Assembly (NCBI GenBank): GCA_964016885.1
Contig: OZ024744.1
Coordinates: 75,888,001 to 75,952,000, forward strand
Direction: 5' to 3'
DNA from: Eledone cirrhosa
Lineage: Eukaryota
DNA: 64,000 bases
Made by a program: the position numbers and the translations under genes. Below, piece by piece: positions 23,377 to 62,075 of the stretch (within the stretch, counting starts at the first letter, position 1; each line of letters opens with the position of its first letter). Under the pieces are notes generated by a model. The model was given only the letters and a program-made list of their open reading frames with translations. It did no database searches and had not been told where the DNA came from.

Positions 23377-23576
23377 TCCTCCTGTCTGTGTCTGCTTACG
23401 CTCACTTTTTGTTAATGAAGGAAAACCAAAATCTCATCTGATGGCATCCCGTCTCAAACACACACATAGTCTCAACCACACGCACACACACACGCATATA
23501 TCCGGGTGCTTCCAATCGACATGGTCGCATTCTTTAAGGGTATGTCAATATTTGTTTATAAAACTGATCTATATTA

Positions 23577-23641
23577 TATTTTATCTGATGAAAGAACACC
23601 ATAATTTGCTTTGGTGTCCTTGAAATATGTATAATGAAATA
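23577..23641 (+). ncRNA. Minimal type I hammerhead (family e)
   Basis: TATTTTAT-CTGATGA-AAGaACACCA..TGGTGTcCTT-GAAA-TATGTA-TA-ATGAAATA. Confidence 0.85.
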
Positions 23642-23958
23642 AATATGGTTTTATAAATATAGTTTCCATTTGTTAATATATTGTATATATATATATATAT
23701 TATTCAAAATATTAATAAATGAAGACATTCACATAATCAAAATATATGTTTTATTTCACCTCCTCCTTTCTTTCTCTCCCCTCTATTTCTCTGTGTTTTC
23801 TTTACCTCCGTTTCTTCTTTCTCTCCGTCTTTTTTCGAACTGTGCTTAACACTATAACTAAATAATTATAAACAAATCACTACCCAGACAGCTTCCTAAT
23901 TTAATGGTCGCTTATAATATGGTACGTCAAAATTATTTATAAAACTGTTTATATATTG

Positions 23959-24024
23959 TATTTTATCTGACGAAGGCATGCCATATTTTTAATATGGTAT
24001 CCCTGAAATATGTATAATGAAATA
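23959..24024 (+). ncRNA. Minimal type I hammerhead (family e), 382 bp after the first
   Basis: TATTTTAT-CTGACGA-AGGcATGCCATA..TATGGTATcCCT-GAAA-TATGTA-TA-ATGAAATA. Confidence 0.85.
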
Positions 24025-24065
24025 AATATGGTTTTATAAATATAGTTTCCATTTGTTTAATATCG

Positions 24066-24137
24066 TATGTTTTATTATATATATTTCGGAGGTATTGTGC
24101 TGTTTTTTCAGTACGTCCTCATCAGATAAAATACATA
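24066..24137 (-). ncRNA. Minimal type I hammerhead (family f), minus strand
   Basis: TTTTAT-CTGATGA-GGA..TCC-GAAA-TATATA-TA-ATAAAA. Confidence 0.8.
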
Positions 24138-24197
24138 AATTGATGTATGACATACCTCAACTGTGTTGATGGTTCAATTCCAGTCTTGGCAGTCATT

Positions 24198-24269
24198 TAT
24201 GTATTTTATCTGATGAGGATGTACTGAAAAAACAGCAGAGTACCTCCGAAATATATATAATAAAACATA
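24198..24269 (+). ncRNA. Minimal type I hammerhead (family f), plus strand
   Basis: TTTTAT-CTGATGA-GGAtGTACT..AGTACcTCC-GAAA-TATATA-TA-ATAAAA. Confidence 0.85.
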
Positions 24270-24406
24270 TATTTTGATTATGTGAATGTATCCATTTATT
24301 AATATATTGAATAATATTAATAACTCCAGAAAACTTCATTGTTGCGTGCTTTTAATCTATTGTAAAACTATATTCATTGTATAATGAACCTTGTTTACCA
24401 TTTGGT

Positions 24407-24524
<118 letters not shown>

Positions 24525-24645: not shown

Positions 24646-27444
24646 CTAGCAGTAAAGCCCGGCGTTGCTCGGGGTCGCTCAGTAGCTGTGTTAAAGTTAC
24701 AATGTTAAGTTTCTTTATTGGCTTACAAACTGTAGTGTCTACTGTGTAGACTTGCATGTGGTGTTTTTGATTAATATTCCCTCAACCAACAATATGCCTT
24801 ATGAAGTTAAGAAAACATAACGATAACCCGAATGTTATAACAAAAGAGGATGCTGGGGATAAAAACTGCACTGGTTATTTATTAACAAAGATCGAAAATG
24901 TAAACACTGCAACGCAGAGAAAAACATTAGCGTAACCAAATTATCAGTTATGTCTGTCTGCACGCCTATATCACCTCTCTGCACGACTGTCTGTCTGCAC
25001 GCGTATATCACCTCTCTGCACGACTATCTGTCTGCACGCGTATATCACCTCTCTGCACGACTATCTGTCTGCACGCGTATATCACCTCTCTGCACGCCTA
25101 ACGAAATTTACAGATACATATATTTTAAATAAACTTATATAATTTTTGCTTTTTTTTACGAAATATTTGCTTGTTTTACGTAGTCTTTAAATAGACTTGT
25201 TTTCAAGTAAAAATATTGTTTTAAAAGGCTTTTAAATGGAAATGAAGCAAAACGGAAGCTTAGTGTTCGAACTGATGAATTTTGCAGGTCAAAATTTTGC
25301 TGGCTCGACAACTGTTCGTGTATTGTGTTAATGTCATTTTAAACGCTGAGAAAGCCAGCGTAATTTTTTTAATTTTTGCCAGCGTAATTTTTTTAATTTT
25401 TGCACGCAGAAAATGTAAAGAGAACGTAAGACGCTACGCTGAATGTAAACAGAACAAAGGGAAATCATTTTTTTAATTTTTGCACGCAGAAAATGTAAAG
25501 AGAACGTAAGACGCTACGCTGAATGTAAACAGAACAAAGGGAAATAACTCATCACTTACGCTCAAAAATCGATACATTATATTCGATTTCGTCAGATAGG
25601 GCGGGTCAATTTGAAATATTTTTTTCCGATGTCTTCGCTAGGGCTCAATGTACAAGTATAGCAATTTCGGTGCAATTCCGTGAGAGATTCTAAGAGGAGA
25701 TGTGTGCCAAAAATCGATAGAGAGACAGACAACCTCAGTTTTATATATATAGATGTCTGTCTGCACGCCTATATCACCTCTCTGCACGACTTCTGTCTGC
25801 ACGCCTATATCACCTCTCTGCACGACTGTCTGTCTGCACGCCTATATCACCTCTCTGCACGACTGTCTGTCTGCACGCCTATATCACCTCTCTGCACGAC
25901 TATCTGTCTGCACGCCTATATCACCTCTCTGCACGACTGTCTGTCTGCACGCGTATATCACCTCTCTGCACGCCTAACGAAATTTACAGATACATATATT
26001 TTAAATAAACTTATATAATTTTTGCTTTTTTTTTACGAAATATTTGCTTGTTTTACGTAGTCTTTAAATACACTTGTTTTCAAGTAAAAATATTGTTTTA
26101 AAAGGCTTTTAAATGGAAATGAAGCAAAACGGAAGCTCAGTGTTCGAACTGATGAATTTTGCAGGTCAAAATTTTGCTGGCTCGACAACTGCTCGTGTAT
26201 TGTGTTAATGTCATTTTAAACGCTGAGAAAGCCAGCGTAATTTTTCTAATTTTTGCCAGCGTAATTTTTTTAATTTTTGCACGCAGAAAATGTAAACAGA
26301 ACGTAAGACGCTACGCTGAATGTAAACAGAACAAAGGGAAATCATTTTTTTAATTTTTGCACGCAGAAAATGTAAAGAGAACGTAAGACGCTACGCTGAA
26401 TGTAAACAGAACAAAGGGAAATAACTCATCACTTACGCTCAAAAATCGATACATTATATTCGATTTCGTCAGATAGGGCGGGTCAATTTGAAATATTTTT
26501 TTTCCGATGTCTTCGCTAGGGCTCAATGTACAAGTATAGCAATTTCGGTGCAATTCCGTGAGAGATTCTAAGAGGAGATGTGTGCCAAAAATCGATAGAC
26601 AGACAGACAACCTCAGTTTTATATATATAGATGTCTGTCTGCACGCCTATATCACCTCTCTGCACGACTGTCTGTCTGCACGCCTATATCACCTCTCTGC
26701 ACGACTGTCTGTCTGCACGCCTATATCACCTCTCTGCACGACTGTCTCTCTGCACGACTGTCTGTCTGCACGCCTATATCACCTCTCTGCACGACTGTCT
26801 GTCTGCACGCCTATATCACCTCTCTGCACGACTGTCTGTCTGCACGCGTATATCACCTCTCTGCACGCCTAACGAAATTTACAGATACATATATTTTAAA
26901 TAAACTTATATAATTTTTGCTTTTTTTTACGAAATATTTGCTTGTTTTACGTGGTCTTTAAATAGACTTGTTTTCAAGTAAAAATATTGTTTTAAAAGGC
27001 TTTTAAATGGAAATGAAGCAAAACGGAAGCTTAGTGTTCGAACTGATGAATTTTGCAGGTCAAAATTTTGCTGGCTCGACAACTGTTCGAGTATTGTGTT
27101 AATGTCATTTTAAACGCTGAGAAAGCCAGCGTAATTTTTTTAATTTTTGCCAGCGTAATTTTTTTAATTTTTGCACGCAGAAAATGTAAAGAGAACGTAA
27201 GACGCTACGCTGAATGTAAACAGAACAAAGGGAAATAACTCATCACTTACGCTCAAATATCGATACATTATATTCGATTTCGTCAGATAGGGTGGGTCAA
27301 TTTGAAATATTTTTTTCTGATGTCTTCGCTAGGGCTCAATGTACAAGTATAGCAATTTCGGTGCAATTCCGTGAGAGATTCTAAGAGGAGATGTGTGCCA
27401 AAAATCGATAGACAGACAGACAACCTCAGTTTTATATATATAGA
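24646..27444 (-). mobile_element. Non-autonomous Helitron with three tandem ~0.8-0.88-kb 5' units and a 37-bp minisatellite
   Basis: Minus strand A|TCTATATATATAAAACTGAGG start occurs 3 times (27444, 26631, 25753); single CCCGAGCAACGCCGGG...CTAG|T end at 24646. Confidence 0.82.
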
Positions 27445-44889: not shown

Positions 44890-47800
44890 ATGACCTCACT
44901 CAGAATAGGCAGCATAAATGCGCGTGGCTTGGGGTCGTCATGGAAGCAGGGTCACCTGCTCAACGACCTCAGGTCACTAAACATAAATGTGGTGGCCATC
45001 AGCGAGACCAGAATCTCCGAAGCACGGGCCTTCGCACCGATCTTCGGCGGCTACGATGTGTACGCATCTCCCAGCCCTCCTGGATCGGGGGTGGGGTGGG
45101 AGTTGCTGTGCTTTTTCGGAGAGATTTGGATCTTCCTAGACCCAGAGGGTAAGTTGGTGGTGCTGGACGTGACCAGCGGAGATGGGCAAGCTTTCAGGCT
45201 AGTGGCCGTCTATGCCCCGACAGGAGCAGGGCGGCCTGATTTCTTCCGGCGTCTGGAGAACTTTCTTGGAACGTCCCGCTCTTTAGTGTTAGTGGGCGAC
45301 TGGAACGGGATCTTAGATGCACGCTGGGACTGTGTGGGATTAGAGGATAGGGGTGGAGGGTGCAAGAGCCTCACCAACCTGCTTAGGCGTTTTGAACTGT
45401 CTGACAGGTACCGATTGGATTTCCCGAATGTGCCAATGTGGACTTGGACAAATCGCATAGGGGTCATCCAGATCATATCTAGATAGAGTATTTTGTAGGG
45501 AAATAGATAGGTCTAGCATAGGCTGTCCACAATTCAAGATAGTCAGCTACACGGGCCACAAATTCGTGATCTGTGTGCTTGACTTAGATAGGCTTCATAG
45601 ACGAGGACCCGGCTACTGGAAGCTAAACGCGTCCTTACCAGCGCGCAAGGCCTACAGAGACCGGATTAGCGAACTAGTTTAGCGGGCGTTGACGGGGGCC
45701 ATCGTCAACAACAAGTAGTGGTTTGCTCTGAAAAGAGCGATTAGAATAGAATCCATTAGGTTTAGTAAGGCTTTAGCAAGAGAGAAAAATAGAGCAGAGG
45801 GTGAACTAGTTAAAAAATTAGACGAGGCGCTTAGCAAAGGCATCGCGACCGACGTACTTGCGGCGAAATTGGCCCTTGACCAATTCTTCAATGCAAAGCA
45901 CGAAGGCTGCGTTGTCAGAGCTAGGGTGCGTGCTCTCAGACACGAGGGGACGAAAGCCGTTCAATGGGCCCGAGTGGCGGAGGCGCGTCGTGGCAACAAA
46001 GCCACGATCCGGTCTTTGGTGGACCACGACGGGCGCATGCTACTCGATCCCGGGCAAATGTGTGAAGCTTTTCAGCGACACTTCTCTCAGCTGTTAGGGG
46101 GCAGCGGTGGGCCGGGTTGAGGGATGGACTTTAGTGTCTACCTCGACGGACAGCTGCGGCTCTCGGCCACTGAGGCGGAGTGGTGCGAAAAGCCGATAAC
46201 AGCCGCTGAAGTACGGGAGGCAATGACTGGCTGCACAAGGGGTAAATCGCCTGGTTTGGATGGTCTGCCCTATGAACTTTACGTACAGATGCCAGACTTG
46301 TTCGGAGGCCTCTTGGCGGACGTCTACTGCAACTGGCAACAGAACGGAAGAATTCCCAGTTCTGTGAGCCGAGGAGCAGTGGAACTGCTGAGAAAGGATC
46401 CGAACAAGGGGGATAACATAGATAATTTCAGGCCCATAACTCTGCTAAACACAGAGTTCAAGATTTTGGCCAAGGTGCTATCAAAGAGGTTGGCGCTTGT
46501 CGTTGGTGGTCTGGTAGGAAAGGCGCAGACATGCGCTATTCCCGACAGATCCATCCACGACAACCTCCACCTCATGCGATACATCGTAGAGAGTGTAGCT
46601 AGGGAACCTGGCACGGGTGGGTCTTTGATCAATTTAGATCAGTCGAAAACTTTCCATAGGTTCGACCATCGTTACCTAGCGGCAGTCCTGAGGGTGGCTG
46701 GCTTTGGGCCAGTCTTCAGAAGCTGGATCGCTGCTATGCACAGCGACATCTGCTCTGTGGTGAGAGTGAACGGTCACCTTTCGGAACCGTTCAACATCAT
46801 GCGCTCGGGCCGCCAAGGATGTCCCCTCTCGTCCCTATTGTACCTATTGACTCTCGAGCCATTACTGCACAAACTGGAGACGTTGATGGGCGTCCCGCGC
46901 GAACTAGGATGCGGAAGATCCGTGTCAGCATATGCGGACGATGTCACCGTAGTGGTGTCGAACGCCAAACACATCGAGGCGATCGGCACTACACTAAGAG
47001 AATACGAAGCGGTGACAGGAGCAATGATCAACCAGGAAAAGTCAGTGGGCCTGCAGCTCGGCACCTGGAGAGGCAGGTCCATGCCATCCAACAGCGTCGT
47101 CGGGTGCTGGACGGACGAAGCGGTTAAATTGCTAGGGGTCTGGTTCGGTCCGCCAGACGGACAAAAACTGGGACGAGGTGACGAGCAGGGTGGCTTCTCT
47201 CACCCAGAAATGGGCGGAGAGGAAGCTATCCCTGAAAGATCGAGCGGCGGTGGATAACGCGTACATCGTGTATGTCATCTGCTACCGCTTGACCGTCGTA
47301 CCTTGTCCGAAGCCCCGCCTGACTGCGCTGGAGCGTTTGCTCTTTCGGTTTTTGTGGAAGGGATGCGCTCCGATGGTCAGGCGGTCCATCTGCTGTCAAC
47401 ACCCGCTACCTGGTGGGCTGGGCATGCCGTGGCTGATGATGCGCAGACACGCGCTCAGGCTACGACATCTCCACCTCTTCCTCGACGGTGATCAGGTGTG
47501 GTCGCCGTTTGCTAGACACGTTTTTCCCCAGCTCGTTTCCTTGACGGAGCTGCAGTCCTGGGTCAAGCGAAGACCGAGAGGGAGCGCCTGGAGACTGGAA
47601 TGTCTTCAGGCGCTCACAGCCCTCGACCAATCGGGCAATGTGATCGGTAGAAACTCTACCTCGGCGTTCTATAGAGGATTAGTGGAGGGGAAGAGCGACG
47701 ACGTACTTGGGGAAACTCTAGGCGTCGACGAAAATCAACTAGCCAATCTCTTTGGAAGAACTTTCGGGCCGGGACCTATGGACAACTTCCAGAAATCTCT

Positions 47801-48293
47801 GGCCTGGCAGTGCTACCGAGGAGCCTTGCCAGTTCGGCATAAACTCTACAGGCATGGAGGTGCCGTCAGCCGGACATGTCCGAGATGCGCGCAGGGCGAC
47901 GAAACCGTCCTGCACGCACTCGTCCAGTGTCCGAAAATTGCTGACTTGTGGGTTTATGTCGAACACCTGCTGTCGCGTGTAGGACGGATCCGGCTATCAT
48001 CTGAGTCCATCGTGAGGATTGCCCCGCCCTCCTCCTTTAGCCTGGAGGGGCAGGCAGATTTTATCTGTCTGGTGGCCATGGCCAAAGAGATAGTATGGTG
48101 GACACGTTTGAAAGGGCTGAAGACGAGCACTTACCTCTTCGGTGATGCCCTGATTAACTTTTTCAAATTTCATTTGAAAAGGAAAATCAGGGTAGAGAGG
48201 GAAGTGCACTCTTCCCAGCATTTTGTTGAAAGATGGGTGAGAGAAGCAAGAATGGCCCGAGTGAATGGGCCTACTCTGAGTACGTATCTGTAA
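44890..48293 (+). pseudogene. Tx1 ORF2 copy 3 (APE-RT-zf), disrupted
   Basis: ORF fragments 44815-45486, 46124-47257, 47178-48293. Confidence 0.9.
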
Positions 48294-57626: not shown

Positions 57627-57688
57627 TATTCTATTATATATATTTCAAGGGTACCAAAAACTTTGGTACGCTTTCATCAGATAAAATA
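57627..57688 (-). ncRNA. Minimal type I hammerhead (family e), third copy
   Basis: TATTTTAT-CTGATGA-AAGcGTACCAAA..TTTGGTACcCTT-GAAA-TATATA-TA-ATAGAATA; flank matches 23642-23670. Confidence 0.85.
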
Positions 57689-60979: not shown

Positions 60980-62075
60980 GTTAAAAGGTGAAAGTACTAC
61001 AAACATTAGAGATATTATGATTTAGAGCTATTATTATAGTGCAAATATAAATTGTTAAAAACGATAGGATCATTTTGAAGGAATATTATAAATTACACAT
61101 AGTTCTGAATGTAGAATTTTGGCGATGTCTGCAAGAATTAAATAATTCTGTTCTGAGATTAATAGAGTTTTGACAGTTAATTATATAAACATTTCTTCAA
61201 TACACAATTTACAGAATTTTGATAAAGCCATATTTCGGTGCGCAGGTTCTTCTGAAATCGTTTTCCAAGATATTGAATAGTCTATATTCTTGCTTTTTAA
61301 GTTCCACATAACATGTGGAAGAAAGGTAGAAGATTTTTCATCGGATCTTCTAAAAGAATGATTGTGGTTAATCCAGCGACCTTTAAATTTTGTAGAAGTG
61401 GCACCGACTTAGTTAAATATATTATCACAAGTTTTAACTATGCATTTATAGACTACATTTTTATCTAAACACTTATTTTGTAAAGAGCAGTTTGATTTGA
61501 TTCTACAGTTACATTTTACGGAGTTGTTGTTGCTCGGAACGGTACTATTGTGTTGGTTATTGCTAGAAATATTATTATTGCTATTTTTGTTAGGGTTTAA
61601 ATTTAAGTTTCTATTATTAATTCTATTTATATTTTGTGCTATGTCTGTTAAAGATTGAGTGGCATCTGTTGGCTTTAGGAAAACATTTGTCTAGTGCTTT
61701 AAAGAATAGTTTTGTTAAAGGTGTTTTAACGCTTAATGAGAATGGGGTGTGAGTACCAAATAATATTTCTAGTTCTAGTTCTTTTGTTTGGTTTAGAGTT
61801 TAAGTTAAATTGTTTATTATTATTATAATTATCACTAGGGTGATTTGCCATGTTATTGTTGTCAATGTATTTAATTGTATTCGAATACCCTGCTCTATTT
61901 AAAGCTTCATTAAAATATTCAGCCTTATCATCAAAAATATTTTTATTAGCAGGGATGCGTGAAATTCGTTGTTGGACACTATTGACAATAGTATTCTTAA
62001 TAGATCTAAGATGATTAGAGTTAAAACTTACGTAATTTAGATTCTCACTCATTAATTTTATGGAAAGGATAATAA
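60980..62075 (-). mobile_element. AT-rich Penelope-like 3' fragment (RT thumb plus GIY-YIG)
   Basis: ENLNYVSFNSNH, RISRI, TRNIIWY; CNCR..CSLQNKCL and CKLCIEE in the 61200-61520 remnants. Confidence 0.8.

What the first reader, a model, noticed from the sequence alone, without database searches (positions are those of the whole stretch)
23520..24320. Four hammerheads in 700 bp in both polarities: tandem pair plus inverted pair
Seen: two family e motifs in direct tandem 382 bp apart, then two family f motifs back to back (24066 minus, 24198 plus). 23700-23755 is the reverse complement of the family f downstream flank (24258-24315). Inference: cleavage at both family e sites would release a ~382-nt unit, the size expected of a retrozyme monomer. 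Tandem minimal hammerheads with self-complementary stem III can act as dimers.
Basis: partly seen in the sequence, partly recalled or inferred. Interest (0 to 1): 0.75.

Follow-up and report, generated by a model that had tools for sequence, protein, structure and literature searches.

The report
Nested Penelope transposon ends, not retrozyme
The four hammerhead (self-cutting RNA) motifs are real, but they are the ends of three different, very common Penelope-type jumping-gene families, one copy sitting inside another, so the apparent 383-base repeat unit occurs only at this spot and is likely an accident of repeated insertion into AT-rich DNA rather than a circular-RNA element.

Summary
The four type I minimal hammerheads are real, but they are not one element. 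The cluster is three 5'-truncated pLTR fragments of Hydra-clade Penelope-like elements. (1) F: a head-to-head pair with one short arm and one arm with a 90-nt tail, like 34 of 34 F pairs examined. (2) E2 (23756-24065; 39 other copies at 96-99%) splits F's reverse arm and is flanked by an 11-nt duplication. (3) E1 (23499-23683; 39 other copies at 97-99%) abuts F's TA run. Longer copies of all three lead into Hydra-type ORF sequence. The 383-nt 'monomer' is a chimera: both diagnostic junctions occur once in the 3-Gb assembly, and e1 and e2 share only about 180 nt at 82%. Similar accidental tandems occur at 4 of 109 other loci. An e1/e2 double hammerhead is sterically possible; the f motifs would be locked in a long hairpin. 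Transcription is untested. This scan's notes report the one-sided-tail layout and true retrozyme arrays on other DNA of this genome. Verdict: ordinary nested transposon debris; low interest.

The parts
23499..23683 (+). E1: 5'-truncated pLTR of a young Hydra-type Penelope-like family, short 3' end; hammerhead e1 (stem I 23577-23584 with 23634-23641, predicted cut after 23633)
   Evidence: 39 other copies at 97-99% among 40 scored; window copy stops at 23499 while others run further 5'; EN C-terminus upstream in L100
23684..23699 (.). (TA)n run between the 3' ends of E1 and of the reverse F arm; the usual flank of all three families
   Evidence: sequence; flanks
23697..23755 (-). Detached 3' end (short end) of the reverse F arm
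   Evidence: contiguous with the 24066+ segment in other F loci; uninterrupted site in 57 of 72 F loci
23745..23755 (+). Left copy of an 11-nt duplication flanking E2 (likely target-site duplication; 2 nt at this side could equally be E2's own)
   Evidence: sequence; E2 native context
23756..24065 (+). E2: 5'-truncated pLTR of a second young Hydra-type family, short 3' end; hammerhead e2 (predicted cut after 24016)
   Evidence: 39 other near-full-length matches at 96-99% among 40 scored; 19 of 19 other loci continue 5' of 23756; full element with ORF in L041, L042, L051
24066..24076 (+). Right copy of the 11-nt duplication (3 nt could be E2's own); on the minus strand it is N17 plus the 3' strand of stem I of the reverse F hammerhead, which therefore stays intact
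   Evidence: sequence
24066..24200 (-). Reverse arm of the F pair, 5' part (from -75 relative to CUGA), with hammerhead f- (predicted cut after 24076 on minus)
24195..24200 (.). 6-nt microhomology at the inversion junction of the F pair
   Evidence: arm coordinates -75 and -15 overlap; native 5' sequence seen in non-inverted copies
24195..24317 (+). Forward arm of the F pair with hammerhead f+ (predicted cut after 24259)
   Evidence: F-linked ORF in L170
24318..24407 (+). About 90-nt 'tail' of F, present on one arm only; homologous tails exist in E1 and E2
24408..24521 (.). (TA)n then (TG)n run, right flank
23634..24016 (+). The 383-nt cut-to-cut interval (26% GC): a chimera unique to this locus

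Best explanation
The cluster consists of fragments of three different multi-copy Hydra-type Penelope-like families (E1, E2, F), with E2 splitting the reverse arm of F between an 11-base duplication, and it likely arose by three separate insertions into TA-rich DNA, so the 383-nt interval is a one-off chimera that likely has no role of its own. Shown: three families; E2 interrupts a sequence that is continuous elsewhere; junctions unique; longer copies carry Hydra-type ORF sequence. Inferred: (a) F came first (its arms are 92-95% like their relatives, against 98% for E1 and E2). Its endonuclease-RT likely nicked a TA run and primed both target ends, starting at two fixed sites about 90 nt apart, which gave one short and one tailed arm joined head to head over a 6-nt microhomology. 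(b) E2 later used the TA-rich stem III/stem I region of F's reverse hammerhead as its target. (c) E1 landed in the TA run left of F. Each insertion carries one hammerhead 50-60 nt from its short 3' end, so even heavily truncated copies keep it, and each leaves TA flanks that are new targets; nearby hammerheads in both polarities follow.
For: E2: 39 other copies at 96-99%, all 19 inspected continue upstream of the window's breakpoint and none has the window's flanks. The F site it interrupts is continuous in 57 of 72 F loci. The 11-nt duplication is close to the 8-10-bp TSDs reported for Penelope elements (PMC3846280, passages). Both junction patterns have 1 exact match in 2,996 Mb; a DNA search across the left junction found it whole only here among 40 scored of 731 candidates. 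The upstream haplotype of the reverse arm goes with C at position +80, the allele on the detached piece, in 17 of 20 readable other insertions, so the two pieces fit as one arm. No same-family direct tandem in 19 E1, 19 E2 or 71 F loci. ORFs: E2 has RWR, DKT, YRDD, CxCx5C, CxxC, CxH; F has DKT, YRDD, CxCx5C, CxxC, CxH; E1 has CxCx5C, CxxC, CxH; by eye the RT blocks follow Hydra-1_Obim. One of 40 arbitrary 10-kb stretches held another F inverted pair. Four other direct hammerhead pairs with unrelated spacers among 109 loci.
Against: The two F arms differ at both subfamily-diagnostic positions (+80, +82), whereas 28 of 34 pairs agree at both: a plain one-template origin for F does not explain this. 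The duplication begins exactly at N17 of the reverse hammerhead, a coincidence I attribute to the TA-rich stem III but did not test. Up to 5 of the 11 duplicated bases could belong to E2 itself. The order of E1 versus F rests on divergence only. Exact patterns miss diverged copies, and DNA searches scored only 40 candidates each. P0001 has no Pfam or PDB match, so its identity rests on motifs and a by-eye comparison, with no tree.
Confidence: 0.88

Rival explanations
1. Same nested origin, but the locus is read through on the plus strand, e1 and e2 cut as a double hammerhead, and a 383-nt RNA is released and circularised: an accidental proto-retrozyme that has not spread. This adds a function to the best explanation rather than replacing its history.
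For: e1 and e2 have identical stem I and stem III strands; cross-pairing of stem I is -5.8 kcal/mol and the shared stem III duplex -2.2; forming both motifs' stems I and II costs only 2-3 kcal/mol in context. Size and low GC fall in the range of animal retrozymes (150-450 bp, <50% GC; PMC7229834 passages). The circle folds better than 50 shuffles (-49.3 against -37.4 +/- 3.7).
Against: PLE minimal hammerheads cut weakly even as dimers (PMC4209133), and the anole one needed its protein (PMC11167929). Both copies are 5'-truncated and no promoter was shown. Only 49% of the circle is paired. The unit lacks the tail, which lies between the two RT start sites in the published model, and it has not been copied.
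Confidence: 0.06
2. One complex insertion event: the RT switched templates among E2, F and E1 RNAs, and the detached F piece was copied from the 3' product of hammerhead cleavage.
For: The detached F piece starts at the predicted cut site; the F arms carry different subfamily alleles, which suggests more than one template.
Against: An overlap of 11 nt between the two F pieces is what a later insertion leaves. F is more diverged from its relatives than E1 and E2. The two reverse pieces share a haplotype group.
Confidence: 0.04
3. A true non-LTR retrozyme dimer: a 382-nt monomer amplified through circular RNA.
For: Spacing and GC content fit; tandem hammerhead arrays are noted elsewhere in this genome (unchecked notes).
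Against: No tandem repeat; junctions unique; e1 and e2 belong to different families, each with its own ORF-bearing copies.
Confidence: 0.01
4. Misassembly of collapsed repeats.
For: Repeat-dense region; no public contig spans it (uninformative).
Against: The junctions are base-precise, with a duplication and family-typical ends; a misjoin would not be expected to make these.
Confidence: 0.01

Closest known systems
Hydra clade of Penelope-like elements (Craig et al. 2021, PMC8557442; includes Hydra-1_Obim and Penelope-13_HM)
   Same: C-terminal GIY-YIG, RW[K/R], DKT, CxCx5C linker, CxxC and CxH, no CCHH, (TA)n targets, hammerhead near the 3' end often cutting after A, 5'-truncated inverted copy attached.
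   Different: E2 is longer (3.8 kb between hammerheads in L041, against under 3 kb for most listed families); RWR instead of RWK; stem I, stem II and stem III letters differ from the listed Hydra motifs; the tail is about 90-95 nt rather than the 30-40 bp given for PLEs in general.
Inverted pLTR with one-sided tail (Arkhipova et al. 2013, PMC3846280; Craig 2021 Fig. 2 legend; two RT start sites in Frangieh et al. 2024, PMC11167929)
   Same: Head-to-head pair, tail on one arm, microhomology at the junction, 8-10-bp TSDs, insertion of one Penelope into another, AT-rich targets including pLTRs.
   Different: Here the one-long-one-short rule holds in 34 of 34 F pairs, whereas the in vitro anole study saw no difference in start site between strands.
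Minimal hammerheads of metazoan PLEs (Cervera and de la Pena 2014, PMC4209133)
   Same: Long stem II, palindromic stem III region, dispersed single motifs from truncated copies, and dual motifs 100-700 bp apart on opposite strands.
   Different: e1 and e2 start stem II with A-U directly after the core, not with a bulge plus G-C; stem I is 8 bp or more.
Animal non-LTR retrozymes (Cervera and de la Pena 2020, PMC7229834; Li et al. 2026, 10.64898/2026.07.22.740005)
   Same: Two type I hammerheads in direct orientation 383 nt apart, low GC, pLTR ancestry.
   Different: No repeated monomer, no genomic copies of the unit, two different families at its ends, no RNA evidence.

Membership tests
Non-LTR retrozyme | Type I hammerheads in direct orientation 150-450 nt apart | tested here: met
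   383 nt cut to cut
Non-LTR retrozyme | Head-to-tail tandem repeat of a monomer (TRF array; at least 80% identity over 80% of the unit) | tested here: not met
   No TRF array near period 383; unit against its neighbours 54-55%
Non-LTR retrozyme | Unit is a multi-copy family | tested here: not met
   Each junction has 1 exact match; whole left junction only here among 40 scored
Non-LTR retrozyme | Low GC | tested here: met
   26% GC
Non-LTR retrozyme | Expressed as linear and circular monomer; self-cleaves | not testable with these tools
   No RNA holder listed
Penelope-like element pLTR fragments | Hammerhead-bearing end linked to an RT plus C-terminal GIY-YIG ORF | tested here: met
   E2: L041, L042, L051; F: L170 (51% to P0001 over 723 columns) and EN upstream in 4 of 25 loci; E1: EN part only, 1 of 2 extended loci
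Penelope-like element pLTR fragments | 5' truncation, head-to-head inverted copy, one-sided tail | tested here: met
Hydra clade PLE | RWK-like motif and DKT | tested here: met
   E2 RWR and DKT; F DKT (its N-terminus was not seen); E1 RT not recovered
Hydra clade PLE | CxCx5C linker, CxxC and CxH, no CCHH cysteine pair in the GIY-YIG core | tested here: met
   All three families
Hydra clade PLE | (TA)n insertion preference | tested here: met
   3' flanks
Hydra clade PLE | Phylogenetic placement with reference Hydra proteins | not tested
   Only a by-eye comparison with the supplement's printed proteins; no tree
Hydra clade PLE | Generally under 3 kb | tested here: not met
   3.8 kb between hammerheads in L041; the paper gives this as a tendency only

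The most novel reading that the evidence does not exclude
This locus is a retrozyme at birth: TA-targeted Hydra elements keep landing in each other's ends and so build thousands of unique 290-380-nt hammerhead-to-hammerhead units with compatible stems; read-through RNA excises and circularises some of them, and this nesting is how new animal retrozyme families start. The mismatched F arms would also record that the two ends of one insertion were copied from two different RNAs by a dimeric enzyme.
Probability: 0.06. Interest if true: 0.55.

Novelty: new member of a known kind. Interest (0 to 1): 0.17.

Why it matters
As it stands it is a caution: two hammerheads at retrozyme spacing are not a retrozyme. 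With roughly 50,000 such motifs in this genome (7 in 400 kb; my extrapolation, Poisson range about 21,000-108,000) and chance direct pairs near a few percent of sampled loci, spacing-based screens would collect many false dimers. Two by-products bear on the open question of how Penelope-like elements make inverted ends: a strict one-short-one-long arm rule, and occasional pairs whose arms come from different subfamilies. If the e1/e2 interval were excised and circularised, it would give a concrete route from pLTR fragments to retrozymes.

Tried and rejected
Rfam at gathering thresholds: nothing. Public runs: no RNA holder listed; four runs of unknown kind, contigs only, one study, none spans the stretch: no evidence either way on expression or assembly. 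Pfam on P0001 and 8 homologues, and PDB by sequence: no family at threshold; the protein atlas gave no answer. The homologue search returned 37 proteins at 28-44% identity, mostly unnamed. I first took an endonuclease fragment 2 kb upstream of an F copy (L046) as F's parent; 9 extended loci of that fragment showed no F end, so it belongs to another family and was dropped. A gapped pattern meant to ask whether E-family ends recur at F's hammerhead returned an error, so recurrence of that target site is untested beyond the exact E2 junction. I considered that the 310-nt E2 fragment might be the 310-nt retrozyme in this scan's notes: the sequence look-up found nothing and E2 copies form no arrays, so rejected. 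The idea that the F pair is one amplified palindromic element was rejected because junction positions differ from locus to locus. Whether E2 is absent in other individuals could not be told from contigs.

Full report
Observation. A descriptor for type I hammerheads finds five motifs in the window, four of them between 23577 and 24269, and none in 20 shuffled windows. The predicted cuts lie after 23633, 24016 and 24259 on plus and after 24076 on minus. Stem II covaries across families (7 pairs with two-sided changes among 12 distinct motifs; related sequences, structure read from them). Rfam does not detect the motifs. The direct similarity between e1 and e2 covers only about 180 nt at 82%.

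The clue. The detached piece 23697-23755 and the reverse arm starting at 24066 overlap by the same 11 bases, which suggested that 23756-24065 is an insertion. Searching the genome with that stretch gave 39 other near-full-length matches at 96-99% among the 40 candidates scored (of 1,979). In all 19 other loci inspected the element continues upstream of 23756, and its 3' end runs into (TA)n or into a tail of about 95 nt, never into F. The F sequence it interrupts is continuous in 57 of 72 F loci. So E2 is a 5'-truncated insertion into F. Two bases on the left and three on the right of the duplication could be E2's own, so the duplication is 6-11 nt. Penelope TSDs of 8-10 bp, and one Penelope inserted into another, are described in PMC3846280 (passages).

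Three families. e1 belongs to a separate family: 39 other copies at 97-99% among 40 scored (of 1,154), truncated here at 23499. F is also multi-copy (2,147 candidates, 40 scored). No E1, E2 or F locus holds two full same-family motifs in direct orientation (0 of 19, 19 and 71). Mean best identity to relatives is 97.8% for E1, 98.4% for E2, and 91.9% and 95.4% for the two F arms, so F is likely the oldest; these means come from top-ranked hits and overstate closeness for all three.

Parents. L041 shows the full E2 layout: TA run, truncated pLTR with hammerhead, tail, broken ORF, 3' UTR, pLTR with hammerhead, TA run. The ORF has RWR, DKT, YRDD, CxCx5C, a GIY-YIG-like core with one cysteine, CxxC and CxH. 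These are the features given for the Hydra clade in PMC8557442 (section 11), and the RT blocks follow the printed Hydra-1_Obim protein by eye (supplement hits; the family list is). F's parent is L170, 51% identical to P0001 over 723 columns and followed by an F hammerhead; the endonuclease lies upstream of F in 4 of 25 loci. For E1 only the endonuclease end was recovered, in 1 of 2 extended loci (66%). Pfam, PDB and the atlas gave nothing, and no tree was built.

The f pair. Head-to-head motifs 100-700 bp apart are described for truncated PLEs in PMC4209133 (parts 1-2 of 4 read). Here junction positions vary between loci, so the pairs form independently. One of 40 ten-kb stretches taken at round coordinates held another F pair, and 7 motifs lay in those 400 kb (shuffles: 1, 0, 0, 0, 0). 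All 34 distinct F pairs found, the window's included, have one short arm and one tailed arm; the first set of loci was found with a query that held part of the tail, the last set with a pattern upstream of the motif. E1 gave 9 of 9 (query biased to a short arm) and E2 4 of 5. A tail on one end only is in print (PMC3846280; PMC8557442 Fig. [quoted passage not shown] This scan's notes on other DNA report the same two-end layout; I saw them.

Is the 383-nt interval a retrozyme? It is E1's 3' end, a TA run, antisense F and a truncated E2 body. The two junction patterns have one exact match each in 2,996 Mb, and the left junction is whole only here among 40 scored candidates. TRF finds no such period, and the interval matches its neighbours at 54-55%. 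It fails the tandem-array definition in 10.64898/2026.07.22.740005 (part 1 of 5 read) and PMC7229834 (passages). Among 109 other loci (some overlapping), four hold direct pairs 287, 292, 373 and 925 nt apart, each with its own spacer containing a TA run. Chance pairs of retrozyme size are thus a regular by-product of TA targeting.

Could it still cut? e1 and e2 share stem I and stem III strands; their stems form at a cost of 2-3 kcal/mol in context, and the dimeric stem III is weak (-2.2 kcal/mol). The f motifs would be buried in a long hairpin in read-through RNA (79 kcal/mol penalty for f+, against 3.5 alone). No RNA data were available, so expression is open.

Unexplained. The two F arms differ at both subfamily-diagnostic sites; 28 of 34 pairs agree at both, 3 differ at one and 3 at both, the other two through gaps or heavy divergence. 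The reverse arm's upstream haplotype goes with C at +80 in 17 of 20 readable insertions and with A in 1 (5 more unreadable). That supports the two reverse pieces being one arm, and implies a second template or later gene conversion for the forward arm. The duplication also starts at N17 of the reverse hammerhead; the TA-rich stem III is the simplest reason, untested.

Verdict. Real motifs, known kind of element, known layout, accidental tandem. My three paper searches were not aimed at the idea that nesting seeds retrozymes, so I make no claim that it is absent from print; supplements of the bioRxiv preprint were not seen. The animal group (likely a cephalopod) is an inference from homologue names and scan notes. 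Interest 0.17.

Noticed in passing
window:54541-57690 (minus): The fifth hammerhead (CUGA at 57680) lies about 750 nt upstream of a decayed Hydra-type ORF (56920 to about 54540), i.e. a near-complete element of a fourth family.
   Followed up: partly
window:28892-30636 and 61193-62052 (minus): Two more decayed Hydra-type ORF fragments.
   Followed up: no
window:6219-8327 and 46121-48290 (plus): Two broken non-LTR retrotransposon copies with RVT_1 and zf-RVT matches.
   Followed up: no
window:24628-25379: A separate repeat (96% match in random stretch L130) that holds a 37-nt tandem array at 24953-25100.
   Followed up: no
window:22973-23145: A short dispersed repeat present in 5 of 40 random stretches; possibly a SINE (guess).
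   Followed up: no
window:24318-24407; L022:1811-1910; L060:1779-1880: The tails of F, E2 and E1 share a conserved block and appear to end in a small hairpin: a candidate RT-binding or start signal of Hydra elements.
   Followed up: no
L012, L168: Other F pairs whose arms differ at diagnostic site +80, possible further two-template insertions.
   Followed up: partly
L037:1200-1810: The one E2 inverted pair with a tail on both arms.
   Followed up: no
L022, L031, L196, L201: Other accidental direct hammerhead pairs, 292, 373, 287 and 925 nt apart.
   Followed up: partly
alignment A2, columns 26 and 50: A mismatch, mostly C opposite C, after the third pair of stem II is kept across the E, F and related families.
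   Followed up: no
L094:3446-5299 (minus); L084: A further high-copy Hydra-type family, about 36-38% identical to P0001, with a 463-aa open frame in L084.
   Followed up: partly
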